A stretch of DNA of 64,000 nucleotides from an uncultured Gemmatimonadaceae bacterium (GTDB lineage: Bacteria; Gemmatimonadota; Gemmatimonadetes; Gemmatimonadales; Gemmatimonadaceae), in the NCBI GenBank assembly GCA_963829055.1, contig CAWHHI010000004.1:192001-256000 (forward strand). The letters run 5' to 3'. The position numbers were made by a program, and so were the translations under genes. This document shows, piece after piece, positions 411 to 62,105 of this stretch (positions within the stretch are counted from its first letter, which is position 1; every line of letters starts with the position of its first letter). Below the pieces are notes generated by a model, which was not told where the DNA came from, made no database searches, and saw nothing but the letters and a program-made list of their open reading frames with translations.

Positions 411-1433
411 TCACCGCAGCCGAATGAAGGCGAGGCCGTTGTTGGGATTCATCGGGATCACGAGCTGATTCGCGCCGGCATCGTAGCACATCGATGCGGC
501 GCTCGGAATGTTACGGGCGATGAGCTCGGCGGGCTGACCCGAGCGGATCCGTGAGACTCCGCCGTTCACGACGCTACTCACGTACTTCGTGCCGTCGCGC
601 ATGATCACGAGACCGTCGTTGCCGGCCTGCGCCGCCTTCTCGGTGCGCACGAGCCGGCCCTCGGGTGAGAACGTGAGCACCTCATCGTTGCCGATGTTCA
701 CGACGACGACGTTTCCCTGTGCGTCGAACGCGACGCCGTTCGGCTGAAGCAGGGGCGCACCCTGCACGAAGATCGACGCAGTGCCGTTAGGCGTGATCTT
801 CCAGACCTGCCAGGATGTGGAGTCGGCGCGGGTTCCCGTTTGCGTCGCGTAGATCGTTCCGTCGTTCGCGACCTCGATGTCGTTGAACCACGCCACGCGG
901 TCGACGCGGATCTCGCCCGCCGGCGCGCCCGTCTTCATGTCGAACTGGCGAATGACCGCGACACTCGGATCGTTAGGCGTGGTGGCGCCGTCGCGATCGG
1001 CGACGTAGAGCTTCCCGTTCGCGATGTCGCTGCCGTACGGCTCGTTCAACACGAGCGGCGGCGTGAGACTCGCGCGCTCGGGCGGGTTCTGCACGCCGAT
1101 CCATCGCGCGGTGTGAACGGAGCCGTCGTGGTTGATGAACGAGACCCACGCGTTGTTCGTCTGCACGTTCTGCGGGACCCCGCGATTCGGCACGACGATG
1201 ACGCCGCGGTCCGCGTCGTACGAACAGCTCTCGGCCGAGTAGATCGCGCCGAAGACTTTGACGTTCGAGGAGACCGGCTCGAACGCTCCCGTCGTCGCAG
1301 GTGTGACCGGCAGCCCGACTCGATTGCCGACGGAGTAGGGCTGCGGCCCCTGCGGTTGCTGTGCCGCCAGGGGGCCCGCGCCGACAGTGGCAACTACCGC
1401 TATCAGGGCAGTCAGGCAGTCGATTCGCTTCAT
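411..1433 (-). CDS. Secreted SMP-30/gluconolactonase/LRE-like beta-propeller protein
   Basis: Signal peptide; SAESCSYD, WFNDIEV, QPNGVAFD, GNDGL propeller motifs. Confidence 0.75.
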   Translation of the reverse strand: MKRIDCLTALIAVVATVGAGPLAAQQPQGPQPYSVGNRVGLPVTPATTGAFEPVSSNVKVFGAIYSAESCSYDADRGVIVVPNRGVPQNVQTNNAWVSFINHDGSVHTARWIGVQNPPERASLTPPLVLNEPYGSDIANGKLYVADRDGATTPNDPSVAVIRQFDMKTGAPAGEIRVDRVAWFNDIEVANDGTIYATQTGTRADSTSWQVWKITPNGTASIFVQGAPLLQPNGVAFDAQGNVVVVNIGNDEVLTFSPEGRLVRTEKAAQAGNDGLVIMRDGTKYVSSVVNGGVSRIRSGQPAELIARNIPSAASMCYDAGANQLVIPMNPNNGLAFIRLR

Positions 1434-1610
1434 GGACAGTCTCCAGTCATGTCGTGCGTTCTCGTGCGTTTAGAGGCGCTGCGTACCATTCTAGTCGCCC
1501 TGGTGCGGATGACGCATGCTGCCACAGCGAGCCCTAGCATCGTCCCTGTCGCTCGAGCGGTAGAGCAGCGACTTGTTTCGGTCCGGTCCGCGTTGTGCGA
1601 AGCGGACGGT

Positions 1611-2624: not shown

Positions 2625-2717
2625 TCGCGGCGCCGCGCTGCTCGCGCTCGAGGCGGTTGCCGCTACTTCCACCGCGCAGCTCGAGTTGGACCCGCGCTTG
2701 CTCACGCTGCGTGGGAA

Positions 2718-4428
2718 ATGCGTCCGAATAGTCACTTCTCTCGAGCCACGAGGGTGCTGTGCGTAACATGGCCACTCGCGTGGGCGGTGCCCGCCCGCGT
2801 GGGTGCGCAGCAGAGCACGGCGCCCGCTACGTCTGCAACGCAGACAGTCGTCGCCGCTCCACCAACAGGAGGCGAAGCACCTAACTCTCCGCGCAGCGCC
2901 CTCAGGCGTTTCTTGGCGCTGGCCGACGAGGGCGACTTCGTCGGAGCGGCCCAGGTGCTCATGCCCGACGTGAGAGATAGAGTTCGGGCCGCCGAAACGG
3001 CCCGCCGGATCTACGAGGTCATGCGACGGCGAGTGGTGATCGACCTCGACAGCGTCTCCCCACTGGCGGAGGGAGATGTCACCGACGCCGAGCCCGTCCT
3101 GCAGGACCGCGTCGGCGTCATGTACGGCCGCGGCGGGGAGCAGTCGAGGCCGATCGTGCTGCGCCGCATAACGCGTGACAGGGAACAGCGGTGGGTGCTC
3201 GCGCCGGAGTCGGTCACGGCCCTCGAGACGGCGTACACGAGCCTCCCACGGTCGTGGGCCGAGGGTCGTCTGCCTCGAACTCTGCTCGAGTCCGGCCCAC
3301 TCGGCATTCCGCGATGGAAGTGGGCCTGGGGGATTTTCGCCCTCCCGATCGTCTGGCTGCTCACGCTCGTCCTCTCGGCGGGCCTGCGCGAGATCGCGGG
3401 AGCAGTGGCCCGCCGCACGACGACGAAGTGGGACGACGAGCTGGTGCGCCGACTACGCGAGCCGATGCGGCTGTTCCTGGCGTCGATTCTCGCACTGCCG
3501 GCAGTCGTGCTCCTCGAGCTCGACGCGAATACCACCGCGACCGCGTGGCGCATCCTGCGAGGGCTCACGATCGTCTCCGTCTTCTGGATGCTGCTGCGCA
3601 TGATCGGCGTTGCGCAGGAGCACCTCGCGCGAAAGGCGTGGGCGTCCGACCGCGCAAACGCGCAGACGATCGTGCCGCTCATCGGCCGGACGCTCCGCGT
3701 CGGACTCGGCGTCGTGGCGCTGCTGGTCGCGATCTCGCAGTTCGGCTACCCCGTGGCCACCTTGCTCGCCGGCTTCGGGCTCGGCGGCATCGTGGTGGCG
3801 CTAGCGGCGCAGAAGACCGTCGAGAACCTGTTCGGGTCGGTGACGCTCGCGGCCGACCGGGTCTTCCGCGTCGGCGACTGGGTGAAGTTCGAAGGGGCAG
3901 AGGGCGCCGTCGAGCGGATCGGGCTCCGCTCGACCCACGTACGGACGATGGACCGCACTCTGGTGAAGGTGCCTAACGGGCGGCTGGCGGACCTGCGCAT
4001 CGAGTCGTTCGGCGAGCGCGACCGGATCCGGTTCTTCACTACGATCCGCCTGGTGTACGGCACGACCGCATCACAGCTCCGGGCTGTCATCCGCGACACC
4101 GAGACCCTCCTCGACTACCCACGCCCGCGTGTGGCCCGAGGGCATCGCCGTCCGGCTTGTCGCGTTAGGCGAGTACAGCCTCGACGTGAACGTGAACGCG
4201 TGGTTCGCGATGACCAACTACGCCGAGTTCGAGCTCATACGCCAGGATGTCCTCCTGTCCATCATGGACATCGTCGAGCGCACCGGTACCCGGCTGGCCA
4301 TGCCGATGCAGGTGCTCCGTATCGAGGAGAACGGGAACGGCAGTGAGTCTGCCGCTCCCGCGCGCGGAGCAGCCGCGGCCGCGGCTGTCGCCGGTTCTCA
4401 TGTGCAGCCGGGCGTCGCCGACCGCTGA
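2718..4428 (+). CDS. MscS-family mechanosensitive channel (frameshift near 4110)
   Basis: ALAAQKTVENLFG, FRVGDWVK, VERIGLRST, VPNG; C-terminus continues in ORF 4129..4428. Confidence 0.85.
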
Positions 4429-4692: not shown

Positions 4693-5074
4693 ATGCGACG
4701 TCGGTCCCCGGTCACCCGCGCACTCTTCAGCCTCACCGCCCTCGTCACGGTGTGGTGCCTCGGCTGCAGCGCGTTCGACCCGCTCATCGCCAGGCTGATC
4801 TCCAGCGACGGCCCGATGATGGTGTGCGCGTCCGAAGCTCCGGCATCGGTTCAGGCGGCGGGGTCAGACAATCCCGTCGGTAAGTGCCCCGGCGGACCGT
4901 GATGCGAGCGACGGCGCCACGTGTGGGTGCGCGTCGTGTACCGCGCCCGCGCCGACTGGTTTCGCGGTCGCCGGACCGGCTCAGGCGTTACCGCAGCAGC
5001 CCACGACCGACGCCGGCTCGCCGACGAGCGTCGTGCGTACCCCGCTCGTCCCGCCGCCCCAGCGCGCTGCCTAA
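4693..5074 (+). CDS. Small exported Cys-motif leader protein upstream of metal efflux operon (CzcI/DUF2946-like layout)
   Basis: MRRRSPVTRALFSLTALVTVWCLGC signal/TM; after one +1 shift near 4875 reads DGATCGCASCTAP...RTPLVPPPQRAA-stop. Confidence 0.6.
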
Positions 5075-5214
5075 CGGGAGACGTGTGTCCGCGCGCGACG
5101 CGATCGCGCCAGCGGACTGACCGTCGGCTCGTCCGAGTCCTCGACGAATCGCCCCGCGGCGGCAGAGCCGTGGTGCTCGCTCAACGACACAACACGCCAC
5201 GCCGGACAGAAAAC

Positions 5215-6638
5215 ATGATCGGTCACCGTTCGTCGGTCCTACGCCGTCGACGCCAGCGCTCCGCCATTGTGCGTGCGACATTCCTCGCCGCGATAGCGGG
5301 AGTCACTAGCCACGGCGCCATCGGCAGGAGCACAGGCCGGTCACTCGGCCGTGGGCGTCCAAGCCCTCACGCTGCACGACGTGCTCGACAGCGCGCTCGC
5401 GCGCCACCCGCTCGTCGAAGCAGCGCACGCCCGGGTCCGTGCCGCGCACGGCACTCGAACAACTGCCGGCGCGTTCGGGAACCCGATGCTGAGCTACGAC
5501 GTCGAGAACGCCCCGTTCCCGGGCGGGAGCCGGGTCACCGGAATGGCACGCGAGACGATGACGACCGCCACGCTGCCACTCGAGAGCATTGTCCAGCGAT
5601 TCCCTCGGACGCGACGCGCCGACGCGGAGGTGCGCGCGGCCGAGGCGGATGCACGCGGGGTACGCCAGCAGCTCGCGCTCGACGCGTCGCGGGCGTTCTT
5701 CCGAACGGCACTCGCGCAAGTCAGCATCGAGGTCGCGCGGGGACCTGACCACGTGGCTCGACTCCGTCGTCGCCTACAACCGGACGCGCGTCGAGGAAGG
5801 TGTCGCGGCGGAAGCGGATCTGATCCGGGCCGAGCTGGAACGCGACCGCGCCGCGGCGCAGCTGACGCTGCACGAGGCCGACTACGCGCGCACGCGCGCC
5901 GAGCTCGCGGCCTTCCTCGGCGACCTCAGGTCAGGTGTCCCGAACGTCGTCGTCACGATCGATGACGCGCCGATACCGCTGCCAGACTTCCCGGACTCGT
6001 CGAGTGCGCGCATCGACGCGCACGCCGCTCCGCTCGCAGTCGCGCAGACAGACCTCGAGCGCCGGCCGGACGTGCGAGCGGCGCGCGAACGCCTAACGTC
6101 TGCGGGAGCCGGAGTCTCGGTCGAGCGCGCTACCATCCTGCGCGAGCTCGGGGCCACGTTCGGCGCGAAGCGTACCGCCGGGACAACGTCGATGGTGGCT
6201 GGGCTCAGCCTGCCGCTGCCGATCTTCGATCCGAATCGCGGCGAGATCGCTCGCGCGTCCGCCGAGCGCGACGTGGCGGCGCTCGACCTCGCGGCACGGG
6301 AGCGCACGGCGCGTGCGGAGTTGGCGGGCGCTTACGAGGCGGCGCGACTTCTGACAGCGCAGGTGTCGCTGCTCACTCGCGGAACTGCCGGTCGGCCAGC
6401 GTTCCTTTCCCGCGCCGATGAGGCGCGTCGCATCGCGCTCGGCGCGTATCGCGAGGGCGCAGTTCCCCTGCTGCAGGTCATCGACGCGGCCCGAGCGTGG
6501 GGTGACGCGCGGCTCGCGTTCTACGAGACGTTATACGCACAGCACGAGAGCGTCGCGCTGCTGCTCGTCGCACGGGGCGATGACCTGTTCACCGAACTGC
6601 CCGCGCTCGCGCGCAGTGGGCAGCGAACTCCGCGCTGA
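5215..6638 (+). CDS. TolC/CzcC-family outer membrane efflux protein (frameshifted)
   Basis: LTLHDVLDSALARHP, RRPDVRAA, LSLPLPIFDPNRG, AYREGAVPLLQVIDA across ORFs 5351..5965 and 5589..6638. Confidence 0.85.
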
Positions 6639-6651
6639 CCGAGGCGACGAC

Positions 6652-7990
6652 ATGCCATTCATTGACGAAACAGGCGACGTTAGGCCGTCACCTCGCGGCG
6701 CCCGACTGATTGGTGCCCTGGCTCGAGCCACAACGATCGCCGCACTCATCGGGTGTCGGGATAATACCGCCGAGAAGGGCGAGACCATGAAGGACGACAC
6801 GGCGCGAAAGGTGGCGTCGGCCGACAGCGGGGCGGCGGGGAAGGGAATGGCCGGGATGAACATGGCATCGCCGACGGTCGCACCGGACAGCGCCGCGGCA
6901 GCGGGCACGCAGGTCACGCTCACCGCGAGCCAGATACGCCACGGCGGCGTGGCGTGGCAGCCCGTGACCGTGGGCACGGCGGCGGCCGTGGTCTCCGTTC
7001 CCGGGCAGCTGGTGCCTAACGAAGATCGCACTGCGCGCCTCGGGTCGCCGGCGTCCGGTCGGGTCATCGCCGTCCGGTCTCGTCCGGGGGACCGCGTCGC
7101 GCGAGGCCAGGTGCTCGTCACGCTGCAGAGCCCCGAGGCGGGCGGGGCACAATCCGACTACGCCAAGGCGCAGGCGGAGCTCACGTCGCAGCGCGCGCAG
7201 GCCACGTACGCGAAAAGCGCCCGCGCCCGCGCGGAACGTCTGCTCGCGCTCAAGGCGATCCCGCGGCAGGACTACGAGCGCGCGGTCGCCGACGACGAGC
7301 TTGCGCAGAGCGCGGTCGTTCAGGCGGAGGCCGAGTTGACGCGAGCGCGCAGCTCGGCGGAACAACTCGGGGCGATCGGCTCGGCCAACGGGGAGATCGC
7401 GTTGACGACGCCGCTGGCCGGTGTTGTTCTGGCGCGGACCGCTGTGCCAGGGACCGTGGTGGAGGCCGGCGCGCCGCTCGTCGTCGTCACTGATCCAACG
7501 ACGCTCTGGCTGACGATCAACGCGCCGGAGTCGCTCGCTGGCGCATTCCGCACGGGCGCGACAATGAGCTTCAGGGTCCCGGCCTACTCTCGGGAGTTGT
7601 TTACGGCGCGCGTCGACGCGGTCGGGGCCGGCCTCGACCCCGGCACGCGGACCCTTCCGGTGCGCGCCACGGTCGACAACCGCAGCTGGCCGGCTCAAAC
7701 CCGAGATGCTTGCGACGGTCATGGCAGCCGGCGGCCCACAGGTCGCGGCGGCGATCGTGCCTGACGCGGCGGTGCAGATGCTCAAGGGAAAAACCGTCGT
7801 GTTCATCGCCCGGCCCGCGCCTAACGGGAGTGCGACGTTCACGCGCCGCGAGGTGGAGGTCGGCTCTCGAGCGGACGGCCGCGCCGCGATCCTCAGCGGC
7901 CTCGCAGCGGGCGATGTCGTCGTGACCACGGGCGCCTTCGCGGTGAAGGCCGAGTTCGAGAAGGGCAGCATGCCGAAGATGGAGATGTGA
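6652..7990 (+). CDS. RND efflux periplasmic adaptor, CzcB/CusB family (frameshift near 7690)
   Basis: PGDRVARGQVLVTL, TPLAGVV, LDPGTRTLPVRA, VPDAAVQ, GLAAGDVVV; Met-rich segments KGMAGMNM and SMPKMEM. Confidence 0.88.
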
Positions 7991-7992: not shown

Positions 7993-10900
7993 ATGACCGT
8001 TCCACGCAGCGTCATCGAGCGCGTGATCGACGCGTCGATCCGGCATCGCGCGATCGTCATCGGCGCGACACTCGCCGTCGCCGCCGCGGGCACCTGGGCA
8101 TTCGCGACGCTCAAGACGGACGCCTTTCCCGACCTGACGCCGAACCAGGTGCTCGTCATGACCGAGGCGCCCGGACTCTCGCCCGTCGAGGTCGAGAATC
8201 AGGTCACGTACCCGATGGAGGTCGCGATGCTCGGCCTCCCGCGCACGACCGATGTCCGATCGATCTCGAAGGTCGGGACTCTCCGTCGTTACCGTGACGT
8301 TCGAAGACGACGTCGACCTCTACTTCGCGCGCGCGCAGGTGCAGCAGCGCATGCAGGACGCAATAATGTCCCTGCCCGATGGAGCAGAGCCGATGCTCGG
8401 GCCGCCGGCGACAGCGATGGGGGAGGTGTTCCAGTACCTCGTCGAGGCGGACGACGGCGCACGAGACAGCCTGACCTTGCTCAACCTGAGCAACGTTCAG
8501 GCGTACGTGATCGCGCCACTCCTTCGAACCGTGCCCGGCGTCGCGTCGGTGAACGCGTGGGGCGGTCTCGAGCAGCAGTTCGAGGTGCTCGCCGATCCCG
8601 CGAAGCTCGCCGGCTTCGGCCTCACGCTCCACGACCTCGAGACCGCGCTCGCGAACAACAACGCGAACTTCGGCGGCGGCTACATCGAGGACCGCGGCGA
8701 GCGCCTAACGCTGCGCGGCCTCGGGCGGGTTGCTGACACGACCGACATCGCGAACGTCGTCGTCGCCACGCGGGAGGCGACGCCGGTCTACGTCCGTGAC
8801 GTGGCGCGCGTCACGATCGGCGGCGCACCGCGATTCGGCGCCGTGACGCGGGACGCGCGCGGGGAGGCGTTGTCGGCGGCCGTCATCATCCTCAAGGGCT
8901 CGAACGGACGCGAGGTCGTCTCCCGCGTGCTCGCGCGGCTCGAGGAGATCAAACGCGTTCTGCCGCGCGGGGTCACCATCCGCCCGTTCTACAACCAGGG
9001 CGAGGTCGTCGAGCGCACGACCCACACGGTGTTCCGGAACCTCATCGAAGGGGCACTGCTCGTCACCGCGATCCTGTTCCTGTTCCTCCGCACGTTCCGC
9101 GCGTCGCTCGTCACGGCGTCCGTCATCCCGCTCTCGTTGTTGATCGCGTTCCTCGCCATGCGCGAGTTCGGCGTCTCGGCCAACCTCATGAGCCTCGGGG
9201 CGCTCGACTTCGGCCTCATCGTCGATGCGTCGGTGGTGATGGTCGAGAACTACGTGCGCCGGCTGCACGGCCAGCACGCACTCGCGCCTGACGCACGGCG
9301 CGACCTGATACGCGAGGCGGCGTTCGAGGTCGGTCGCCCCGTCGTGTTCGGCGTCGCGATCATCGTCGCGGTGTACGTGCCCATTTTCACGCTCGAGGGG
9401 CTCGAGGGCCGCATGTTCCGGCCGATGGCGTTCACCGTCTGCGCGGCCGTGCTCGGCTCACTCCTCCTCGCGCTCACGTACGTTCCCGCCGCGTCAGCGT
9501 ACGTCTTCGCACGCGAGGGCGGCGCGCGAACGTCGCGACGCACCCACGAGGACGCGCGTTGGTTCGTTGCGTTGCGCGCGAAGTACGCCGGAGCGCTCGA
9601 GTGGGCGCTCACACATCGCCGCGCCGTGGTCGGCGGCGCACTGGCGTTGCTCGCCGTGTCGCTCGGGTCAGTCCCGTTCCTCGGCACCGAGTTCATGCCG
9701 AAGCTCGACGAGGGCTACATGCTGATCGAGACGCGCCGCGCGCCGAGTGCGGCGCTGGCGCAGGGCATCGCCGTCTCCGAGGACGTGGAGCGCACGCTCA
9801 GATCCCTTCCCGAGGTGGCGCGCGTCGTGACGAACCTCGGCCGGCCGCACGAGGCGACCGAGACGATGGCGCTCAACCAGGGCGACGTATACGTGACGTT
9901 CAAACCGAAGCGCGAGTGGCGCGACGGTTCGCTGGACGCGTTGATCGAGCGCATGGACTCGGCGCTCGCGGAGATTCCGGGACTCGACTACGAGTTCAGC
10001 GCGCCGATGCGCATGCGGCTCGACGAAGTGATCTCGGGCGTCCGCACCGACCTGGGCGTGAAGCTCTACGGCGACAGCCTGCCGCTGCTCCAGGAGAAGG
10101 CGGCTGAGGTCGAGCGCGTCATTGCCGCAGTGCCGGGCGCCGAAGACGTGTCGGTCGGCGCGAGCGCCGGTGCGATGCAGCTCGAGGTCGATCTCGATCG
10201 CGCGGCGATCGCGCGCTACGGCCTCAACGTCGCGGACGTGCGCGAGGCCGTCGAGTCGGGGATCGGCGGGGCCGCAACGACGGAGGTGCTGGATGGGCGG
10301 CGACGCTACCCGATTGTCGTTAGGCTCGACGCGCCCTACCGCTCGACGCCCGAGGCCGTGGGCCAGACGCTGATCCGGACACCGGCGGGGGGAACGGTGA
10401 CCCTGTCGCAGGTGGCGCGCCTGCGGACCGTGGAAGGACCGGAGGTCGTCGAGCACGAGGGGGGCCAGCGCTTCGTGGTCGTGAAGAGCAACGTGCGCGG
10501 GCGCGACCTCGGCAGCTTCGTGGCCGACGTCCGACGCGCGGTCGCCGAGCGGGTGACAATGCCGCCCGGCTACTTCACGGCGTACGGCGGGCAGTTCGCG
10601 AACCAGGCACGCGCGACGCGGCGACTCGCGGTCATCGTGCCGCTCGTGCTGCTCCTCATCGTCGTTCTGCTCTACGCGAGCTTCGGGAGTGTGCGGCACG
10701 CGCTGCTCGTCATGCTCAACGTGCCGTTTGCGCTCGTTGGCGGGATCGCCGCGCTCTGGCTGCGCGGTCTGAATCTCAACCTCAGCGCGTCGGTCGGCTT
10801 CATCGCGCTGTTTGGCGTCGCGGTGCTCAACGGCGTCGTGCTGCTGTCGTACATCAACCAGCTTCGGGCTGCCGGCCGCACGTTAGGCGACGCCGTCCGT

Positions 10901-14672: not shown

Positions 14673-14681
14673 GGAACTGAC

Positions 14682-17512: not shown

Positions 17513-17649
17513 GGTATCCCTCGGAGTCTCGATGTTGGTATCACGACGTCCCGGCGTCCCCGGGCATTGGCGCGGCGCGTGCACGGCTGGCCGTGTCCAC
17601 GCGTGCGCCCGTCGTGAGGTACACGTTAGGCCTCGAGATCCACTGCCGA

Positions 17650-19752: not shown

Positions 19753-19849
19753 GGCGGTCGCTCCGGAGACGTGGACGGCTCGGGGTCGCGGCCGATCGAC
19801 GATCGCGGTCAGCCGTGCGACGATGATCGCCTAACGCCGACGTCCGCGC

Positions 19850-22087: not shown

Positions 22088-22150
22088 CGCAGGTCCAGCC
22101 ATCCTCCGCAAGGAATCATGTCCACGATGAAGCGAGTGCCGGGACTGGCG

Positions 22151-33229: not shown

Positions 33230-33230
33230 C

Positions 33231-37056: not shown

Positions 37057-37190
37057 TCCGGGCACGCGTGACGCGAGCAATCGGCGATGAATCGGACGCG
37101 CGCGCCGCCTCGGGAAGTGGCGGTCCATCGAGTACCCCTACGCGCCTAACGCCGGTCGTCTCGGCAGATTGGGCGCTCGCGATCAACTAC

Positions 37191-37880: not shown

Positions 37881-37952
37881 GCCCGCGTCAGGGCTGACGA
37901 GCCGCGTGGCGGCGGCTCTCTTCGCCGCCGCGCAGTTCGTGGGTCGCTCCCT

Positions 37953-51641: not shown

Positions 51642-51785
51642 CTGCCAGCTCCAATCTGATGATGTCACGCCACGATAGGCGCGACTCGATCGGGACGAGG
51701 CCGGCCTGGCGTTAGGCGGCCGGGCGTGCCAACCCGTTCCCGACGGGACGGCATCGCGAGAGGCCTCGTTGGGTTGCTGTGCTGA

Positions 51786-54910: not shown

Positions 54911-55043
54911 GTCGATGGTGCGTCGGCGAGCCGCGCGGAGCTCGCCGGCGCACGCGGTAGGCGGCGGCTGTCCCGCCGCCGACGCCGCTTCGAGAAGCGT
55001 TAGGCACGAGCACGGAAGTGCACCGTGTTGCACGGCCCTGCAC

Positions 55044-56723
55044 CTAACGACCGCCGCTTCCCGTCGTATCGCTCCCGACCGCCGCGACGTTGTCGTCGCG
55101 CACGCGCTCGATGAACGTCCGATACGGATCGATCCCGGCCTGCGTGGGCCGGCGCGGCACGATGACGGTGATCGTCTGCTTGCCGCTGCGTATGCGGTGC
55201 TGCTTGAGGTACAGAGTGTCGCCCAGGCCATCCGGACTCCCGGTTCGCTTGGCGAAGACCCCCACGTCCACGAGGTCGTCCATCGGGATCGGCGTCTTGT
55301 TGCCGATGCTGTCCGCGCGCGCTTTCGACGCGTCGACGAACAGCCTAACGCGGTACGCCCCGCCCCCCGCGGGCTCGGCTTTCGCCGAATCGGCGCGGAC
55401 ATCCCAGATCGTGATGTGCTCGAACAGGTCCGACAGCAGTGGCTTGAGCGAGTCCGGGGTGGCTGCCTTGAGCTCGGCGTAGAGCGCGCGCGATGTCGGC
55501 GGCGGCGCGTTCGCGCCGGCGTACTTGTCGTGGAAGCGGCGCAGCGCGCCGTTCACCGCGTCGGCGCCGAGGCGCTCGCGCAGGGTGTACATTGCGACGG
55601 CGCCTTTCATGTAATAGACGTAGCTCTGGTTCACCACGTCGAGCAGCGGCACCTCGCGGTTCGTGTAGACGGTCCGGCCGGAGAGGTACGTCTTCATGAC
55701 GTAGTCGTAGAAGTCGCGCACCATCGCCTCGCCGTACTCCTTCTCCAGCACCATCATCGAGCTGTACTGCGCAAGCGTCTCGGAGACGAAGCTGGCGCCG
55801 GGCGCCGACGCGGGGATCACCTGCCCGCCCCACCACTGGTGGGCGGTCTCGTGCGCGACGACGAAGAACGTGCGGTCGACGCCGCCGGAGTCGATGCGCG
55901 TGAGGAACGCGCTACCCTCGGAGAACGCGATCGTGCCGGGGTGCGCCCGAGCCCCCGCCGCGTACAGCGGGAACTCGACGACGCGGAGCTCATTGAACTG
56001 ATACGGGCCGAAGTGCTCGCCGTAGTACGCGAGCGAGGCGCGCATGCTGCGGATCATCCGGTCGACGTTCACGTCGTGCGCCGGATGATAGTAGACGGCG
56101 AGCGCCACGCCCTGCGCCGTGTCCCTGCGGACCGCGTACTCCGCGGACAGGACGGCGGTGCCGAAGCGGGTGGGCTGGTCGGTCCGGTAGTGGAAGTAGC
56201 GGCGGCCATTCTCGGTCCATTCGCGGACGAGCCTTCCGGGCGAGATGGCCGTGTGGCGCGGGTCGGTCCCGATGATCGTCTCGCCGTCCACCAGCTGCAC
56301 CGGCTTCAATCCCGCTCGCGTCTCCACGTCCCCCGCGCTCGGCGCCACCGCACGGGGAGGGAGGCCGAGCTCGCGGCGCTTCGTCTCGTCGGTGAGCTCT
56401 CGGCTGGGTGAGTAGCCCAGGACCGGCATCCAGGGGGCATCCTGGCGCTCGGGCACATAGCCTACCTGTGCCCTCACCCCCGGCCCATCCCGCCCGGTAT
56501 CGAGCCCGAAGACCTCCGCGGTGCCAGCGTCGGGACGCTCCAGGTTCATGAGCACCTTGAACAGGGTGCTCTTGCCGGCGCCGTTGACCCCGACGAGGAC
56601 GTATACCGCCCCTTCAGGGACTCGCAGGTCCACCTCGTGAAGCGCGGACTCGCGGCCGTAGCGCTTGGACAACCCGTGCGTGGCCACCGCGTAGTCGCCA
56701 ATCCGTGGGTCGGTGTAGATCAC
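55044..56723 (-). CDS. In-frame chimera: partial ABC ATPase N-terminus plus M1 aminopeptidase domain
   Basis: GVNGAGKST and VGYVPE, no LSGG or Walker B, then VVAHETAHQWWG...SETLAQYS, YYMKG. Confidence 0.75.
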   Translation of the reverse strand: MIYTDPRIGDYAVATHGLSKRYGRESALHEVDLRVPEGAVYVLVGVNGAGKSTLFKVLMNLERPDAGTAEVFGLDTGRDGPGVRAQVGYVPERQDAPWMPVLGYSPSRELTDETKRRELGLPPRAVAPSAGDVETRAGLKPVQLVDGETIIGTDPRHTAISPGRLVREWTENGRRYFHYRTDQPTRFGTAVLSAEYAVRRDTAQGVALAVYYHPAHDVNVDRMIRSMRASLAYYGEHFGPYQFNELRVVEFPLYAAGARAHPGTIAFSEGSAFLTRIDSGGVDRTFFVVAHETAHQWWGGQVIPASAPGASFVSETLAQYSSMMVLEKEYGEAMVRDFYDYVMKTYLSGRTVYTNREVPLLDVVNQSYVYYMKGAVAMYTLRERLGADAVNGALRRFHDKYAGANAPPPTSRALYAELKAATPDSLKPLLSDLFEHITIWDVRADSAKAEPAGGGAYRVRLFVDASKARADSIGNKTPIPMDDLVDVGVFAKRTGSPDGLGDTLYLKQHRIRSGKQTITVIVPRRPTQAGIDPYRTFIERVRDDNVAAVGSDTTGSGGR

Positions 56724-57770: not shown

Positions 57771-58148
57771 ATGCCTGCTCTCGTGTCGTCCGTCGTGGTC
57801 CGCACGATCGTGCTACTCACGTGCTCGAACGTCTTCATGACGTTCGCCTGGTACGCGCACCTCCGGAATCTGAGTGGGCGTCCGTGGTACGTGGCGGCGC
57901 TGGTGAGCTGGGGGATCGCGCTGTTCGAGTACCTGCTGCAGGTGCCCGCGAACCGCATCGGCTACACGCAGCTCAGCCTCGCGCAGCTCAAGATCCTGCA
58001 GGAAGTGATCACGTTAGGCGTATTCGTCCCGTTTGCCGTGTTCTACATGCGGCAGCCACTGCGCTGGGACTACCTCTGGGCGGCGTTATGCATCCTCGGC
58101 GCCGTGTACTTCATGTTTCGCGGCGGCGCCGGCGCGCACGCCGGATGA
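57771..58148 (+). CDS. DMT superfamily membrane protein (DUF486-like)
   Basis: SNVFMTFAWYAHL, SWGIALFEYLLQVPANRIG, QLKILQEVITL. Confidence 0.88.
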   Translation: MPALVSSVVVRTIVLLTCSNVFMTFAWYAHLRNLSGRPWYVAALVSWGIALFEYLLQVPANRIGYTQLSLAQLKILQEVITLGVFVPFAVFYMRQPLRWDYLWAALCILGAVYFMFRGGAGAHAG

Positions 58149-58276: not shown

Positions 58277-59287
58277 CTACGGTGCTACGATGGTTCCCAT
58301 CTTGACGAGCTCGAAGTTCGCGGCGGTGAGCTGCCCGAGCTTGGCGAGGTTGTCGTCGCTCCAGCGTGAGTCGGGCGCGCCGCTGATGTAGAAGCCGCTG
58401 CCGTTGTCGGCGAGGAACATCCCGTACTTCTTGAGCGCCGTGAGGATCACGCGCACCTCGGGCGGATACGTCGAGATGTCGAAGTCCGCCTTGAGGCGGA
58501 CGCGCGCGCCCATCGGCATGTAGCTCGTGCTCGTTTGCGAGCTCGCCCAGTGACGCGCGGGCGAGATGTATGCCTTGCGCGTCGTCGGACAGGTGAACCG
58601 CAGCGCGTGGTTGATCGCGCCCTTGATCACCGCTTCGTCATAGCGCACGAGTCCGGGGAAGATCGGAAGCCCCGCAGCGTCGGCGGACGTCCAGCCGGCC
58701 GGGCGCAGCGCGTTCGAGCTCAGATCCCAGGTCGCGCCGGAACCTGCGTGCCAGCTCGTGCCACCGTTGAGTGGGTGCGAATCGAACGTCTCGTAGAGCT
58801 TCCAGGCGATCGTGTCGATGACGATCACGTGCCGATCGCCCGTGCCGTTCGGTCCGCCCTCGATGGGCGCGTTCGCCGGGATCGGATACGGTCCGGGGTC
58901 GCTCTCATCCGCGTAGTCGAACGAGACCGGCACCTTGGGCTGCGTTCCGCCCACGAGCACGTACGGAATGCCGTTAGGTGCGCCGTCCCAGACCGTTCCG
59001 AAGTCGGGGTGCACGCGTCGCGTGGAGCCGCCGCAGCTGTTGATGAGCGTCGTGGAGTTCGGATCGACTGGCTGCGCTGAGATGTCCGTGTTCCACGGGT
59101 TGTCCGCGGGGAACACGAGTCGAGCGCCGACGCTGCCGCCTCCGGTCCCAGGCGGCGCGGTGGTGCCGCCGCCTTTCCTGCCATCGGCTGACAGCGTGTC
59201 GGCACCGGGTGACATTGACGTATCACCCGCGCAGGCGGTGCCTAACGTCAGCGCGGCCAGGACTGCGACTGCTGCTTCACGACGCAT
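58277..59287 (-). CDS. Hypothetical secreted lipoprotein
   Basis: Lipobox GTAC; FPADNPWN, WTSADAAGLPIFPGLVR, ALKKYGMFLADNG. Confidence 0.8.
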   Translation of the reverse strand: MRREAAVAVLAALTLGTACAGDTSMSPGADTLSADGRKGGGTTAPPGTGGGSVGARLVFPADNPWNTDISAQPVDPNSTTLINSCGGSTRRVHPDFGTVWDGAPNGIPYVLVGGTQPKVPVSFDYADESDPGPYPIPANAPIEGGPNGTGDRHVIVIDTIAWKLYETFDSHPLNGGTSWHAGSGATWDLSSNALRPAGWTSADAAGLPIFPGLVRYDEAVIKGAINHALRFTCPTTRKAYISPARHWASSQTSTSYMPMGARVRLKADFDISTYPPEVRVILTALKKYGMFLADNGSGFYISGAPDSRWSDDNLAKLGQLTAANFELVKMGTIVAP

Positions 59288-59586: not shown

Positions 59587-59675
59587 CTTTCATGAGAAGA
59601 CAGCCTAGCCGCGTATCAGCGAACGAGCACCCCGCACGCGACGCGATTGTCGCGCGCGTCTATCCGGCCAGCCAA

Positions 59676-62105
59676 ATGTCGAACGATTTTCGTTTCGCGC
59701 TGCGGTCGCTCCGCCGGCGACCCGCGTTTACCGCCGCCGTGTTTCTCACCCTCGCGCTTGGCATCGGCACGAGCACGGCCGTGTTCAGTCTGCTCGATGC
59801 GGCACTGATCCGGCCGCTGCCATTCGCCGATCCATCACGCATCGTGATGCTGTCAGGGGTCTACGGGCCCGAGCGCGCGGTTCGCGGCGCATCTCATCGC
59901 GAGATCCTCGATTGGCGCGAGCTCAACCACTCGTTCAGCGACGTCGCCGCGTACGACGACATCTCGCTCAACCTCCGCACGACCGGCGAACCGCGGCGCG
60001 TAGAGGCGGAGATGGTGTCCGCGAGCTATTTCGACATCGTTGGGGCGACGGCGGCGCGCGGGAGAACGTTCACGCCCGACGAGGACCGTGTTCCCGACGA
60101 GCGGCCAGTCGCCGTGATCAGCCACGCGATGTGGACCACGCGGTTCGGAAGCGACCCAGGCATCATCGGTCGATCCATCACGCTCAACGACCGCCCACTC
60201 ACCATCGTCGGCGTCATGCGCGACGGCTTCCGAGGGATCTCGTTCGACGCCGACGTCTGGGTGCCGATGATGATGATCTCGCTCACCACCGCGCCTTCCA
60301 CGCTCGAGAATCGCGGCAACCGCTGGCTCGGCGCGATCGGACGGATGAAGCCGGGCGTCACGATGTCCGGAGCGCAGCGCGACATGGACGCCGTCGCGGC
60401 GCGCCTCGCGACGGCGTTCCCGGAATCGAACCAGGAACGCGGCGTTAGGCTCTCGACGCTCCAGGACGCCGCGCTCGGCTCCACGCGCGACCTGCTCATC
60501 GCACTGTTCGCCGCGGTGATGGTGTTTCTCGCCATCGCCTGTGCGAACGTCATGAATCTCCAGCTTGTGCGCGCGACGTCGCGTCGTCGCGAGATGGCGC
60601 TGCGTGTCGCCGTGGGCGCCGACCGCGGTGCCTTGCTTCGACAGCTGCTGGCCGAAGGGCTGACGCTGGCAGTGCTCGGCGCAGCGGGCGGCCTAACGCT
60701 CGCGGTGTGGGCGCTCGCCGCCCTGCTGCCACTGCTTCCCACTGGCGCGCTGCCGCCCTGGGTGACGCCCTCGGTGGACTGGCGCGTGATGGCGTTCACG
60801 ACGGTGATGACTCTGGCGTGTGGCGTGTTGTTCGGGCTCGCGCCCGCGTTCCAGGCGCGGCGACTCGTCATCGCCGATTCGCTCAAGGAAGGGGCGCGGT
60901 CTGCCGCCGGCGGCATCACGACGCTGCGTCGCTTCGGCGCCCAACAGCTTCTCGTCGTGTGCGAGGTCGCCCTGGCGCTGATGCTGCTCGTGGGTGGTGG
61001 CCTGATGCTGCGCAGCCTGCAGCGTCAGCTCGGCGTCGAGCCCGGCTTCCGCGCGAACGGCGTCGTGACCGCGCAGATCTCACTGCCGCGTCAGTACAGT
61101 CGATCGGTGCGCACCGACATCGCTCGCCGGTTGGTCGAACGCGTGCGCGCACTTCCGCAGGTCCAGTCCGTCGCCCTCGGGTCGGACGTTCCGCTCGACG
61201 GCAACACCAGCGCCGCGAACATCTTCATCGACGGCGTGACGGACACGCCCATTCGCTTCTACCGCCATCGCGTCACGCCGGACTACTTCGCGACGCTCGG
61301 CATCCCGCTACTTCGCGGTCGCACGTTCGGCGCGGCGGACCGCGACAGCACGCCTCTCGTCGTGGTCATCACGGAGGCGATGGCGCGCCGCTACTGGCCG
61401 AACGACGACGCCGTCGGCCGCCGCATTCGATTCGGCGATGCGACCGGCGTCGAAGCGACCGTGGTCGGCGTCGTTGGGACCGCGCGCTTTCGCGATCTCA
61501 CGTCGAGCGTGATCGCGCCGCGCAGCGAACCCAATGTCTTCGTGTCGTTCGACCAGCGACCGGACATCGATTTTTCGCTGATCGTGCGGACGACGGACGA
61601 GCCGGCTACGTTGGTGAGCGCAATGCAGCGGGAGCTCTCCGCGATCGATCCGGGAATCCCGCTGTACCACGCGGCGCCGCTCGCCGACCTCCTCGGTCGT
61701 CAGACGGCGGCGGCCCGGTTCGGGTCCACTCTTCTCGGGACGTTCAGCATTGTGGCCCTGCTGCTCGCGGCGATCGGCATCTACGGCGTCCTGTCGTTCG
61801 TCATCGGACTGAGCCGACGCGAGATCGCGATCCGCCTCGCACTCGGCGCGACAGTCGGGCGCGTCATCACGCTCATCGTCACGCAGAGCATGCGTCTCGT
61901 CGCCGTGGGTCTCGCGGTTGGTCTCGCCGGCGCGTACCTCACGAGCGGCCTGCTGTCGACGCAGCTGTTCGGCATCTCCGCCACCGATCCGGCGACGTTC
62001 GCCGGCGTCGCCCTCATCGTGCTCGGCGTCGCAGTCGTTGCCAGCTACCTCCCGTCGCGCCTGGCCGCGCGCATCGATCCCCAGCACGCCCTCAAATCCG
62101 ACTGA
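59676..62105 (+). CDS. ADOP/MacB-like duplicated permease (intact)
   Basis: DFRFALRSLRRRPAF, IACANVMNL, RRREMALRVAVGA, LAAIGIYGV, ARIDPQHALKSD. Confidence 0.92.
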   Translation: MSNDFRFALRSLRRRPAFTAAVFLTLALGIGTSTAVFSLLDAALIRPLPFADPSRIVMLSGVYGPERAVRGASHREILDWRELNHSFSDVAAYDDISLNLRTTGEPRRVEAEMVSASYFDIVGATAARGRTFTPDEDRVPDERPVAVISHAMWTTRFGSDPGIIGRSITLNDRPLTIVGVMRDGFRGISFDADVWVPMMMISLTTAPSTLENRGNRWLGAIGRMKPGVTMSGAQRDMDAVAARLATAFPESNQERGVRLSTLQDAALGSTRDLLIALFAAVMVFLAIACANVMNLQLVRATSRRREMALRVAVGADRGALLRQLLAEGLTLAVLGAAGGLTLAVWALAALLPLLPTGALPPWVTPSVDWRVMAFTTVMTLACGVLFGLAPAFQARRLVIADSLKEGARSAAGGITTLRRFGAQQLLVVCEVALALMLLVGGGLMLRSLQRQLGVEPGFRANGVVTAQISLPRQYSRSVRTDIARRLVERVRALPQVQSVALGSDVPLDGNTSAANIFIDGVTDTPIRFYRHRVTPDYFATLGIPLLRGRTFGAADRDSTPLVVVITEAMARRYWPNDDAVGRRIRFGDATGVEATVVGVVGTARFRDLTSSVIAPRSEPNVFVSFDQRPDIDFSLIVRTTDEPATLVSAMQRELSAIDPGIPLYHAAPLADLLGRQTAAARFGSTLLGTFSIVALLLAAIGIYGVLSFVIGLSRREIAIRLALGATVGRVITLIVTQSMRLVAVGLAVGLAGAYLTSGLLSTQLFGISATDPATFAGVALIVLGVAVVASYLPSRLAARIDPQHALKSD

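What the first reader, a model, noticed from the sequence alone, without database searches (positions are those of the whole stretch)
785..60698. Hyper-abundant non-palindromic octamer CGTTAGGC/GCCTAACG: candidate DNA-uptake-sequence-like genome signal
Seen: by-eye count of 49 exact copies, 25 as CGTTAGGC (e.g. 785, 971, 4163, 6678, 10318, 10881, 18232, 18319, 33157, 49991, 60443) and 24 as GCCTAACG (e.g. 3971, 5069, 6091, 7014, 8703, 22047, 22082, 36559, 43400, 60691), plus about a dozen one-mismatch variants (83, 29318, 32601, 45614, 62116). At ~68% GC a zero-order model expects about 2-3 on both strands. Most copies sit inside genes, in different frames, imposing codons rare at this GC (CGC-CTA-ACG, ACG-TTA-GGC, GTT-AGG, CCT-AAC); two supply the stop codon (5072, 22085). 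Established: Chi and KOPS are orientation-biased, HIP1 is palindromic, Neisseria DUS and Pasteurellaceae USS are non-palindromic, unbiased and embedded in genes. Inference: this behaves most like an uptake signal or a nucleoid-protein/methylation site; I know of no description for this lineage.
Basis: partly seen in the sequence, partly recalled or inferred. Interest (0 to 1): 0.9.

Follow-up and report, generated by a model that had tools for sequence, protein, structure and literature searches.

The report
Hyper-abundant CGTTAGGC word in Gemmatimonadaceae
This uncultured soil bacterium has written one eight-letter DNA word about five thousand times through its genes against its own codon habits, much like the "self tags" of bacteria that take up their own kind's DNA; the word is spelled like the core recombination site of integron gene cassettes, and what reads it is unknown.

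Summary
The window has 49 exact copies (25+/24-) against 1.19 expected. The genome, a 7.78-Mb Gemmatimonadaceae MAG, has 5004.

- **DNA-level signal:** coding regions hold 3119 copies against 75-150 under codon-aware nulls. All six frames are used. 22.5% of protein-compatible positions are occupied.
- **No polarity:** there is no strand or replichore bias, so Chi/KOPS is rejected.
- **Interference:** copies repel each other up to about 400 bp, whatever their orientation.
- **Maintenance:** copies are kept between species at 39 of 76 sites, against 27 of 261 frame-matched controls.
- **Methylation:** Vsr and two main DNA methyltransferase families were found in 0 of 7 congeners. A third gave one strong hit.
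- **Distribution:** the trait is bimodal in the family, with 53 of 147 genomes "on", in 31 of 75 genera. It recurs in 1 of 301 Verrucomicrobiota genomes.
- **Integron link:** the word equals the R' end of integron attC sites in three phyla. Integrase presence does not track abundance.

Best reading: an uptake-sequence-like self word with an unknown reader (confidence 0.4). Earlier notes of this scan reported the same word on other DNA. The paper searches found no description.

The parts
785..792 (+). exact copy; antisense in gene 411-1433(-), read ACG CCT AAC GGC (T-P-N-G)
971..978 (+). exact copy; antisense in gene 411-1433(-), CCT AAC (P-N) frame
3971..3978 (-). exact copy; in MscS-like gene 2913-4346(+), CCT AAC frame
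4163..4170 (+). exact copy; sense in gene 2913-4346(+), GTT AGG (V-R) frame
5069..5076 (-). exact copy; no called gene; inside ORF 4921-5748(+) as xGC CTA ACG; does not supply a stop for any ORF of 60 aa or more
6091..6098 (-). exact copy; in outer-membrane efflux gene 5649-6638(+), CGC CTA ACG (R-L-T)
6678..6685 (+). exact copy; sense in HlyD-like gene 6616-7764(+), GTT AGG frame
7014..7021 (-). exact copy; in gene 6616-7764(+), CCT AAC frame
7819..7826 (-). exact copy; outside called genes
8703..8710 (-). exact copy; in AcrB-like gene 8294-11173(+), CGC CTA ACG
10318..10325 (+). exact copy; sense in AcrB-like gene, GTT AGG frame
10881..10888 (+). exact copy; sense in AcrB-like gene, ACG TTA GGC (T-L-G, rare TTA)
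12795..12802 (+). exact copy; outside called genes
13313..13320 (-). exact copy; outside called genes
14854..14861 (-). exact copy; outside called genes
17624..17631 (+). exact copy; outside called genes
18232..18239 (+). exact copy; in AraC-type gene 17711-18565(-), CCT AAC frame
18319..18326 (+). exact copy; in gene 17711-18565(-), CCT AAC frame
19829..19836 (-). exact copy; outside called genes
20092..20099 (-). exact copy; sense in gene 19925-20599(-), GTT AGG frame
22047..22054 (-). exact copy; in gene 21680-22087(+), CGC CTA ACG
22082..22089 (-). exact copy; GCC TAA CG supplies the TAA stop of gene 21680-22087(+)
25073..25080 (+). exact copy; outside called genes
26575..26582 (+). exact copy; in Kelch-repeat gene 26057-26857(-), CCT AAC frame
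29585..29592 (-). exact copy; outside called genes
30330..30337 (+). exact copy; outside called genes
31039..31046 (+). exact copy; in gene 30548-31081(-), CCT AAC frame
33157..33164 (+). exact copy; in gene 32651-33229(-), CCT AAC frame
34201..34208 (+). exact copy; outside called genes
36559..36566 (-). exact copy; in gene 36468-37880(+), CGC CTA ACG
36616..36623 (+). exact copy; sense in gene 36468-37880(+), ACG TTA GGC
36857..36864 (-). exact copy; in gene 36468-37880(+), CCT AAC frame
37144..37151 (-). exact copy; in gene 36468-37880(+), CGC CTA ACG
39487..39494 (-). exact copy; sense in MacB/FtsX permease gene 37888-40218(-), GCG TTA GGC
42483..42490 (-). exact copy; sense in gene 42363-42701(-), ACG TTA GGC
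43400..43407 (-). exact copy; outside called genes
48882..48889 (+). exact copy; in gene 48199-49407(-), CCT AAC frame
49737..49744 (-). exact copy; sense in gene 49464-51641(-), ACG TTA GGC
49991..49998 (+). exact copy; in gene 49464-51641(-), CCT AAC frame
50204..50211 (+). exact copy; in gene 49464-51641(-), CCT AAC frame
51057..51064 (-). exact copy; sense in gene 49464-51641(-), GCG TTA GGC
51710..51717 (+). exact copy; outside called genes
52804..52811 (+). exact copy; in histidine-kinase gene 52634-53809(-), CCT AAC frame
54998..55005 (+). exact copy; outside called genes
55343..55350 (-). exact copy; sense in gene 55044-56723(-), GTT AGG frame
58012..58019 (+). exact copy; sense in DMT-family gene 57771-58148(+), ACG TTA GGC
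59240..59247 (-). exact copy; sense in gene 58277-59287(-), ACG TTA GGC
60443..60450 (+). exact copy; sense in MacB/FtsX permease gene 59676-62105(+), GTT AGG frame
60691..60698 (-). exact copy; in gene 59676-62105(+), GGC CTA ACG

Best explanation
CGTTAGGC is a genome-wide 'self word' that acts at the DNA level. It is read as duplex DNA whatever its orientation, and it is kept at roughly one copy per 0.75-1.5 kb by a force that acts per DNA segment, not per site.

The most likely mechanism is the one known for the uptake sequences of Neisseriaceae (DUS) and Pasteurellaceae (USS). A component of the DNA-uptake or transformation machinery prefers fragments that carry the word. Word-bearing alleles are therefore imported and recombined more often, and the word accumulates by molecular drive (with or without selection) wherever the protein sequence tolerates it.

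Shown here: the abundance, its DNA-level nature, strand symmetry, saturation of compatible sites, orientation-independent mutual interference, active maintenance of individual copies, absence from one stretch of foreign DNA, and presence of the transformation genes.

For: - **DNA-level signal.** Called CDS hold 3119 copies, against 150.4 (synonymous shuffle) or 75.2 (word-free codon usage). All six frames are used, and the commonest is the rare-codon frame xCG-TTA-GGC with 1258 copies. Flanks carry 0.13 bit or less per position.
- **Saturation.** 3104 of 13786 protein-compatible CDS positions are occupied; for the x-P-N-x frame it is 846 of 1474.
- **No polarity.** Strand heterogeneity is chi2 152.5 on 145 bins of 50 kb (p 0.32). 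2589 of 4984 adjacent pairs share a strand. Sense versus antisense to genes is 1826:1623.
- **Interference.** Gaps under 200 bp number 83, against 295.9 +/- 17.1 in 200 random draws from compatible sites. Pair density is 0.18, 0.25, 0.44 and 0.81 of expectation at <50, 50-100, 100-200 and 200-400 bp. The same-strand share is about 0.5-0.57 beyond 50 bp (0.70 below 50 bp). A local mutational drive should not give this; a per-fragment benefit should.
- **Maintenance.** In 238,796 aligned positions against congener G001 (79.5% identity), occupied sites keep the 8-mer at 39 of 76. Unoccupied sites of the same peptide classes do so at 27 of 261. A first, smaller test gave 25 of 42 and 25 of 61, against 19% for all 8-mers.
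- **Self versus foreign.** The only outlying gap is 49.6 kb (C6:5440-55037). It has 70-73% GC and carries second copies of ftsK, aroC, DAHP synthase and pepA at 47-56% identity to the genome's other copies.
- **Machinery present.** pilMNOPQ with pilins, ComEC, DprA and a ComEA-like protein.
- **Shared properties of DUS/USS, as read in passages.** DUS spacing matches conversion fragments, DUS are conserved, and they are absent from acquired genes (PMC2397512). Reading-frame bias and peptide enrichment are reported in PMC2817400. Here the peptide shift is in the same direction but weak.
Against: - No uptake or transformation data exist. The organism is known only as a MAG.
- The competence genes are just as present in word-poor relatives: ComEC in 21 of 21 genomes; secretin, DprA and pilins also in G007.
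- No reader was identified.
- The proteome shift is much weaker than the roughly two-fold reported for known uptake sequences. Forward/reverse peptide ratios are 1.6 against 1.36 and 1.25-1.33 against 1.06.
- There is no excess of inverted pairs as in Neisseria terminators. Pairs within 60 nt: 27 same-strand, 13 opposite.
- The same 8-mer recurs in a Verrucomicrobiota genome and equals the integron attC R' core in three phyla. An arbitrary uptake specificity does not predict this.
- The other long gaps (10-16 kb) hold ordinary genes and match an exponential tail, so 'absent from acquired DNA' rests on one island.
- The gene calls come from my own crude caller (71% coding).
Confidence: 0.4

Rival explanations
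1. The word is the binding or nucleation site of a chromosomal DNA-binding protein and is kept by selection, not by uptake drive. The protein could organise the nucleoid, or could mark DNA as 'self' for a nuclease, repair or defence system.
For: Orientation-independent reading and interference out to about 400 bp fit one bound site serving a neighbourhood. Individual copies are maintained. The bimodal on/off distribution, including a split genus (g54: 0.97 and 0.94 against 0.013 per kb), fits gain or loss of one system. The genus carries almost no classical methyltransferases, so another self-marking scheme is conceivable.
Against: No candidate protein was found. I recall no nucleoid protein with a fully specified, non-palindromic 8-bp site at this density. 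Copies turn over quickly between species (37 of 76 occupied sites differ in G001), which fits drive-mutation balance at least as well as site-specific selection.
Confidence: 0.25
2. The word is abundant because it is the recognition core of integron-type tyrosine recombinases. An IntI, Xer-like or derived DNA-binding protein reads GTTAGGC genome-wide. Alternatively, the reader's specificity was borrowed from, or tuned to, the attC R' end.
For: - Cassette arrays in the same order end every attC in the octamer (G015:C95, C80, C43 and G013:C3; 47 contexts printed, most with the R''-L''...L'-R' palindrome).
- G000's own small integron has attC-like sites ending in the octamer.
- An Acidobacteriota array does the same in 23 of 23 copies.
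- The published consensus is GTTRRRY / RYYYAAC (PMC3053210, passages read).
- An isolated IntI N-terminal fragment ORF exists at G000:C4:2862-3170.
Against: - IntI presence does not track abundance. It is over the curated cut-off in 14 of 21 relatives, including word-poor G007-G009, G011-G014 and G018-G020. None over the cut-off was found in word-rich G002 and G004, nor in G010 (moderate: 605 copies, 0.16/kb). It is present in 'off' G120, and only partial in the densest genome, G022.
- Dispersed copies have no attC architecture. Only about 40 GCCTAAC..GTTAGGC pairs exist genome-wide, almost none with complementary arms, and flanks carry no information.
- Integrase insertion at genomic attG sites needs only GWT (bioRxiv 10.1101/2022.09.11.507474, passages read).
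- A cleaved site would be expected to be lost by conversion, not gained (inference).
Confidence: 0.12
3. A methyltransferase or short-patch-repair drive, as proposed for cyanobacterial HIP1: near-cognate sites are repaired towards the methylated cognate word.
For: The magnitude of enrichment and the in-gene position resemble HIP1 (recalled). Not all methyltransferase families were searched.
Against: - Vsr was found in 0 of 7, PF00145 in 0 of 7 and PF01555 in 0 of 7 genomes of the genus. PF02384 was strong only in G001; its weak hits lie in a ~1080-aa protein that word-poor genomes also have.
- One-mismatch neighbours show position-specific effects, not transition-specific ones. TGTTAGGC and CGTTAGGT are enriched 4.4x and 5.2x, and all changes at positions 2 and 7 are depleted.
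- The word is non-palindromic.
- A site-local drive does not predict the mutual interference.
Confidence: 0.06
4. A Chi-like recombination hotspot or a KOPS-like FtsK-orienting sequence.
For: It is an octamer, non-palindromic, lineage-specific and frequent in core genes. G000 has an AddAB-like PDDEXK pair on C15. In sister genus G010 the copies on two contigs are strongly one-sided (C1 22:6, C6 0:15).
Against: - There is no polarity in G000, nor in my own scans of G061, G086, G053, G068 and G467.
- Interference is orientation-independent.
- RecC was found in 0 of 21 genomes.
- PDDEXK_1 nucleases do not track the trait: none found in the densest genome G022, present in 'off' G120.
- The G010 bias follows gene-strand bias and is absent on four other contigs.
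Confidence: 0.03

Closest known systems
DNA uptake sequences: DUS of Neisseriaceae and USS of Pasteurellaceae
   Same: A short, fully specified, non-palindromic word at about one per kb. Both strands are used equally. It sits in genes in all frames against codon preference. It is lineage-restricted, copies are conserved but turn over, it is missing from foreign DNA, and spacing is more even than random. Published DUS/USS properties were read in passages of PMC2397512 and PMC2817400.
   Different: Uptake bias is untested and no receptor is known. The phylum is different, with no known competence. The word is 8 bp with no flanking preference. There is no terminator-type inverted pairing. The proteome shift is weak. 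Within one family the trait is on or off, not a set of dialects: only G010 has a variant, CGTTTGGC, with 925 copies against 110 for the control. The same word recurs in another phylum.
Integron attC/attI core site (GTTRRRY, inverse core RYYYAAC)
   Same: The inner heptamer GTTAGGC / GCCTAAC fits the published consensus (PMC3053210, passages). The full octamer is the R' end of attC sites in arrays of Gemmatimonadota (the same order) and Acidobacteriota, and in G000's own integron.
   Different: The 5004 dispersed copies have no R''-L''...L'-R' palindrome, no conserved flanks, no one-strand arrangement and no cassette spacing. Integrase presence does not track abundance.
HIP1 and other highly iterated palindromes of cyanobacteria
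   Same: An octamer at comparable density, written into genes, of unknown function (recalled).
   Different: Not palindromic. No associated methyltransferase or Vsr was found.
Chi (RecBCD/AddAB) and KOPS/SRS (FtsK/SpoIIIE)
   Same: Lineage-specific, non-palindromic 7-8-mers over-represented in core DNA.
   Different: Those are co-oriented with replication (recalled). This word has no polarity, and its interference is orientation-independent. Its enrichment over codon-aware nulls is 20-40 fold.

Membership tests
Uptake sequences (DUS/USS) | Short specific word hugely over-represented beyond codon and protein needs | tested here: met
   3119 in CDS against 150.4 or 75.2 under two codon-aware nulls; top 8-mer genome-wide
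Uptake sequences (DUS/USS) | Both orientations equally, no replication polarity | tested here: met
   2547:2457; chi2 152.5 on 145 bins; 2589 of 4984 adjacent pairs on the same strand
Uptake sequences (DUS/USS) | Shared by relatives, conserved at orthologous sites, lacking in foreign DNA | tested here: met
   6 of 6 congeners; 39 of 76 against 27 of 261; one 49.6-kb foreign island without copies. The other long gaps are not informative
Uptake sequences (DUS/USS) | Competent cells preferentially take up DNA carrying the word | not testable with these tools
   Uncultured MAG; needs an uptake assay
Uptake sequences (DUS/USS) | Transformation machinery present (type IV pilus, ComEA, ComEC, DprA) | tested here: met
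   Not discriminating: also present in word-poor G007
Uptake sequences (DUS/USS) | Dedicated reader (ComP-type minor pilin in Neisseria; recalled) | not tested
   Pilins are present, but no specificity can be inferred from sequence
Uptake sequences (DUS/USS) | Proteome enriched about two-fold in word-encoded peptides (PMC2817400) | tested here: inconclusive
   Forward/reverse ratios 1.6 against 1.36 (PN[ADEGV]) and 1.25-1.33 against 1.06 ([APST]LG)
Chi / KOPS | Strand polarity co-oriented with replication | tested here: not met
Chi / KOPS | Cognate RecBCD or AddAB enzyme tracking the word | tested here: not met
   RecC 0 of 21. PDDEXK_1 not found in dense G022, present in 'off' G120
HIP1-type iterated palindromes | Palindromic word | tested here: not met
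   The sequence itself
HIP1-type iterated palindromes | Associated methyltransferase / short-patch repair | tested here: not met
   Vsr, PF00145 and PF01555 each 0 of 7 in the genus; PF02384 strong in G001 only. Other methyltransferase families were not searched
Integron attC site | RYYYAAC ... GTTRRRY flanking an imperfect palindrome of 57-141 bp (PMC3053210) | tested here: not met
   Dispersed copies: flanks carry no information; about 40 candidate pairs, almost none with complementary arms. Met only for a few sites beside G000's intI
Integron attC site | One-strand arrays next to intI with cassette spacing | tested here: not met
   Strands are mixed genome-wide, in contrast to G015, G013 and G165 arrays

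The most novel reading that the evidence does not exclude
The word is read by a so far unknown reader that can be gained or lost. Its specificity coincides with the universal R' core of integron attC sites. Word-rich lineages (31 of 75 sampled Gemmatimonadaceae genera and at least one Verrucomicrobiota lineage) would then preferentially import or retain both conspecific DNA and integron cassettes from the common soil pool. This would be a direct mechanistic link between DNA 'self' tagging, or uptake specificity, and the integron gene-capture system.
Probability: 0.15. Interest if true: 0.92.

Novelty: new variant of a known kind. Interest (0 to 1): 0.78.

Why it matters
Sequence-specific uptake tags are firmly known from only two families of host-associated Proteobacteria (recalled). 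This is a family of abundant, uncultured soil bacteria with a word of comparable strength. The data set has a natural on/off contrast (53 'on', 91 'off' genomes, one split genus), which makes the unknown reader findable by gene-content comparison.

Three features go beyond a new example:
- the orientation-independent interference between copies;
- the recurrence of the identical 8-mer in a second phylum;
- its identity with the integron attC core.

If the word governs which DNA these bacteria import or keep, it bears on gene flow in soil and on how integron cassettes spread. If it is not an uptake signal, it marks an unknown genome-wide DNA-reading system. It is also a practical marker for binning: the word exposed a 50-kb foreign or chimeric stretch in this MAG.

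Tried and rejected
- **False polarity.** The list showed only plus-strand copies for G061:C2, G161:C1, G119:C1 and G086:C1, and I briefly read this as extreme polarity. My own scan of fetched DNA shows mixed strands. The lists are truncated, so I dropped that reading.
- **G010 polarity.** It is real on two contigs (22:6, 0:15), follows gene-strand bias, and is absent on four others. I did not pursue it.
- **Dialects.** CGTTTGGC is enriched only in G010, 1 of 147 usable genomes. In about 20-kb samples of 78 word-poor named loci, no alternative AT-containing octamer stood out.
- **Long gaps as mobile DNA.** Eight gaps of 10-16 kb hold ordinary metabolic and housekeeping genes, with one plasmid-type RPA protein. 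Their number fits an exponential tail: 3 against 1.2 expected over 12.8 kb.
- **IntI as driver.** No association with abundance.
- **attG insertion.** It needs only GWT.
- **Methylation/VSP.** No enzymes found and no signature in the neighbours.
- **Chi.** See the rival explanations.
- **Horizontally shared reader.** I compared 1493 ORFs from 363 kb of G467 with G000. The 195 hits had a median identity of 42%, and the top hits fall in what looks like conserved housekeeping regions. Nothing stood out, but only about 12% of that genome was sampled.
- **Pilin profile.** Considered and not run, because the shared N-terminal helix makes presence calls unreliable.
- **Literature.** The octamer itself returns only primers and unrelated text. 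'Gemmatimonadetes' with 'DNA uptake sequence' gave 0 papers. None of the 10 listed papers for 'uptake sequence' with Gemmatimonas, Gemmatimonadota or Verrucomicrobia holds the term 'uptake sequence'. 'integron' with 'Gemmatimonadetes' and 'attC' gave 2 unrelated papers.
- **Not used.** Structure prediction, complex prediction, read laying and the protein-database searches, because no candidate reader emerged.

Full report
**What is there.** The window is G000:C4:192001-256000 of a 7,784,024-bp assembly in 20 contigs. The closest named relatives of its AcrB-like protein are MAGs titled Gemmatimonadaceae, Gemmatimonadales or Gemmatimonadota. 100 dinucleotide-preserving shuffles gave a mean of 1.19 and never more than 5. 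Genome-wide there are 5004 copies (2547/2457), 17 times the base-composition expectation, the highest ratio of any 8-mer. The signal is exactly eight bases long. Flanking positions carry 0.13 bit or less. 5004 of the 7392 TTAGG pentamers lie inside the octamer. A maximal-order Markov ratio of 0.99 only reflects that the sub-words are themselves made by the octamer.

**It is a DNA-level signal.** I called genes with a simple codon-usage caller: 6124 genes, 71% coding. That is crude, so 'outside called genes' is not the same as intergenic.
- 3449 copies touch called genes and 1555 do not, in proportion to length.
- All six frames occur. On the coding strand: xCG-TTA-GGC 1258, xxC-GTT-AGG-C 412, CGT-TAG-GC as a stop 156. 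For the complement: xGC-CTA-ACG 585, xxG-CCT-AAC-G 860, GCC-TAA-CG as a stop 178.
- CDS hold 3119 complete copies, against a mean of 150.4 after shuffling synonymous codons within each gene (10 runs, range 123-170). That null is conservative, because it keeps the word's own codons. Resampling from word-free codon usage gave 75.2 (5 runs).
- 46% of all TTA codons (1259 of 2723) lie in the word.
- Of 13,786 positions where the encoded peptide would allow the word, 3104 (22.5%) carry it. For the x-Pro-Asn-x frame it is 846 of 1474.
- In the window, 35 of 49 copies lie in called genes in five frame classes. One (22082-22089) supplies a stop. The copy at 5069 does not supply a stop for any ORF of 60 aa or more.
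- The window's 57 one-mismatch copies are close to the shuffle expectation.

**Orientation and spacing.**
- There is no strand structure. Heterogeneity over 145 bins of 50 kb gives chi2 152.5 (p 0.32). 2589 of 4984 neighbours share a strand. The correlation with GC skew is weak (rho 0.16, p 0.06). Orientation relative to genes is 1826:1623. This excludes Chi/KOPS-type polarity and RNA-level functions.
- Copies avoid each other. Against 200 random draws of the same number of sites from the protein-compatible positions, gaps under 100, 200 and 400 bp number 23, 83 and 312, where 157.6 +/- 11.6, 295.9 +/- 17.1 and 550.6 +/- 21.0 are expected.
- The pair density is 0.18, 0.25, 0.44 and 0.81 of expectation in the distance bins <50, 50-100, 100-200 and 200-400 bp, and about 1 beyond. 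Same-strand pairs make up about half from 50 bp outward (0.70 below 50 bp), so the interference does not depend on orientation.
- A drive that acts on each site independently, such as methylation-linked repair, does not predict this. A benefit counted per DNA segment does.
- Close inverted pairs are not enriched.

**Maintenance and turnover.** In 238,796 aligned positions between G000 and congener G001 (79.5% identity):
- the identical 8-mer is kept at 39 of 76 occupied coding sites;
- it is kept at 27 of 261 unoccupied sites of the same peptide classes;
- 15 of those 261 carry the word in G001 only;
- over all contexts, 59 of 110 copies are conserved.

An earlier, smaller test, with some overlapping loci, gave 25 of 42 and 25 of 61, against 19% for all 8-mers. 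Copies are therefore actively kept, yet they turn over. Where the partner lacks the word it usually has the ordinary high-GC spelling, and 26 of 37 such sites differ at two or more positions. The proteome is only mildly shifted towards word-encoded peptides.

**Self versus foreign.** One gap is a clear outlier: 49,597 bp at C6:5440-55037. It has 70-73% GC, against 66.5% for the genome, and encodes ftsK, aroC, DAHP synthase, pepA and trp genes. The genome holds second copies of these elsewhere at 47-56% identity. It is either a chimeric join in the MAG or a large transfer from a distant lineage, and the word is absent from it. The next eight gaps (10-16 kb) hold ordinary genes and are as long as an exponential tail predicts, so this argument rests on one island.

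**Candidate machinery.**
- Vsr (PF03852), C5 methyltransferases (PF00145) and N6/N4 methyltransferases (PF01555) were each found in 0 of 7 genomes of the genus.
- PF02384 gave one strong hit (G001), plus weak hits in a ~1080-aa protein that word-poor genomes share. These MAGs are 77-92% complete, so this means 'not found', not 'absent'.
- One-mismatch neighbours show position effects: changes at positions 2 and 7 are depleted, while TGTTAGGC, CGTTAGGT, CGTTAGGG and CGTTATGC are enriched. There is no deamination-repair signature.
- RecC was found in 0 of 21 genomes, and AddAB-type nucleases do not track the trait.
- G000 has pilM-N-O-P-Q with two tandem pilins and minor-pilin-like genes, orphan pilins, ComEC, DprA and a weak ComEA-like match. 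So do word-poor relatives.

**Distribution.**
- In 21 relatives, all 6 congeners have 2501-5112 copies. Most other genera have 5-65, below the reversed-word control. G010 has 605.
- In a sample of 151 genomes of the family, I dropped 4 that are flagged unpublished, leaving 147. Of these, 91 have under 0.02 copies per kb, 3 have 0.02-0.05 and 53 have 0.05-1.33. The 53 are spread over 31 of 75 genera. 15 genera have a member at 0.2 per kb or more, and g14 reaches 1.2-1.3.
- Values mostly agree within genera, but g54 is split (0.97 and 0.94 against 0.013).
- All 24 genomes with 1000 or more copies are near 50:50 by strand.
- My own scans of DNA from g53, g78, g45, g60 and the lists for g14 show mixed strands. 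An apparent one-strand pattern in the list was a truncation artefact.
- Of 80 named loci, only L015 (26 copies in 17.8 kb) and L072 (5 in 9.2 kb) are rich.
- Outside the phylum, 1 of 301 genomes from the phylum of an Opitutus-titled MAG (Verrucomicrobiota) carries 2140 copies in 2.9 Mb (G467). The next highest has 104.
- G467 is a different organism: 57% GC, and a median best-hit protein identity to G000 of 38%. The word behaves the same there: 0.76 per kb, 126 of 261 neighbours on the same strand, 5 gaps under 100 bp against 20.9 expected. T precedes it in 83% of copies.
- In 398 usable Acidobacteriota genomes (401 less 3 flagged unpublished), none reaches 0.2 per kb. The highest strand-balanced count is 299.

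**The integron coincidence.** Word-poor genomes of the same order hold most of their few copies in one-strand runs 500-650 bp apart. Aligning 47 such contexts (G015:C95, C80, C43; G013:C3) shows textbook attC sites in most of them: GCCTAAC, a left arm, a variable part, the complementary arm, then the octamer. A Thermoanaerobaculia genome (Acidobacteriota) has an array in which 23 of 23 copies in 20 kb end a conserved ~60-nt attC. G000 has its own intI (265.7 bits) with a few attC-like sites ending in the word. This fits the published core GTTRRRY and inverse core RYYYAAC (PMC3053210, passages read).

The dispersed copies are not attC sites. IntI is over the cut-off in 14 of 21 relatives irrespective of abundance, and it is present in 'off' G120. 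Genomic attG insertion needs only GWT (bioRxiv 10.1101/2022.09.11.507474, passages read). The identity is therefore unexplained.

**Verdict.** The best-supported mechanism is an uptake-sequence-like drive (confidence 0.4). The interference, orientation independence, saturation, maintenance with turnover and absence from foreign DNA are what fragment-level preferential import predicts, and they match the published behaviour of DUS/USS (PMC2397512 and PMC2817400, passages read). A selected binding site for a chromosomal or self-recognition protein (0.25) fits nearly as well. A recombinase-linked reader (0.12) is kept alive by the attC identity. Methylation drive (0.06) and Chi/KOPS (0.03) are largely contradicted.

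**Earlier notes and unpublished genomes.** Earlier notes of this scan reported the same word in other Gemmatimonadaceae genomes, its integron identity, and TCGTTAGGC in soil Verrucomicrobia. I had found the attC identity before reading them, and I confirmed the Verrucomicrobiota case myself.

Noticed in passing
G000:C6:5440-55037 (outside the window): A 49.6-kb stretch without any copy, at 70-73% GC. It carries ftsK, aroC, DAHP synthase, pepA and trp genes that duplicate the genome's own at only 47-56% identity. It is probably a chimeric join in the MAG or a large transfer from a distant lineage.
   Followed up: partly
L140-L144 (G015:C95:1-24000, G015:C80, G015:C43, G013:C3); L252 (G165:C2:1132000-1151999): Chromosomal integron cassette arrays with conserved attC sites that all end in the octamer. 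In G015:C80 the integrase gene lies on the same strand, just past the array. The Acidobacteriota array spans about 51 kb.
   Followed up: partly
G000:C20:197000-209200: G000's own integron: intI at 208041-208958 (just over the curated cut-off), a run of 10 minus-strand copies out of 11 beside it, at least two of them with attC-like arms (205101, 207188), and a copy at 209104 just upstream of intI.
   Followed up: partly
G000:C4:2862-3170: An isolated ORF encoding only the N-terminal ~105 residues of an integron-type integrase. A similar fragment sits at a contig end in congener G002. It may be a pseudogene or a stand-alone DNA-binding domain.
   Followed up: no
G467 (L213-L231, 363 kb sample): The Verrucomicrobiota genome carries a second, even denser word, AAGATCGACA: 576 copies in 363 kb, about 1200 times the composition expectation.
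   Followed up: no
G010 (L125-L139, L151-L170): The sister genus has a one-letter variant, CGTTTGGC: 925 copies against 110 for the control, enriched in this genome alone among those sampled. TCGTTTGGCA is its top 10-mer. Its CGTTAGGC copies are one-sided on two contigs (22:6, 0:15), following gene-strand bias.
   Followed up: partly
G000-G006 (genus g1): These 5.7-7.8-Mb soil genomes show almost no classical DNA methyltransferases. PF00145 and PF01555 were found in 0 of 7, and PF02384 is strong in one only.
   Followed up: no
window:4921-6638, 11767-14677, 31866-35368: Several window genes look split into adjacent pieces: the outer-membrane efflux protein over two overlapping frames, a large beta-barrel receptor in two parts, and three amidohydrolase C-terminal fragments. 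These may be frameshifts, pseudogenes or assembly errors.
   Followed up: no
Acidobacteriota sample: G639, G856, G533, G778, G824, G753, G503: Strongly one-sided counts of the octamer (for example 168:6 and 5:100), the pattern given by large integron arrays. The sequences were not inspected.
   Followed up: no
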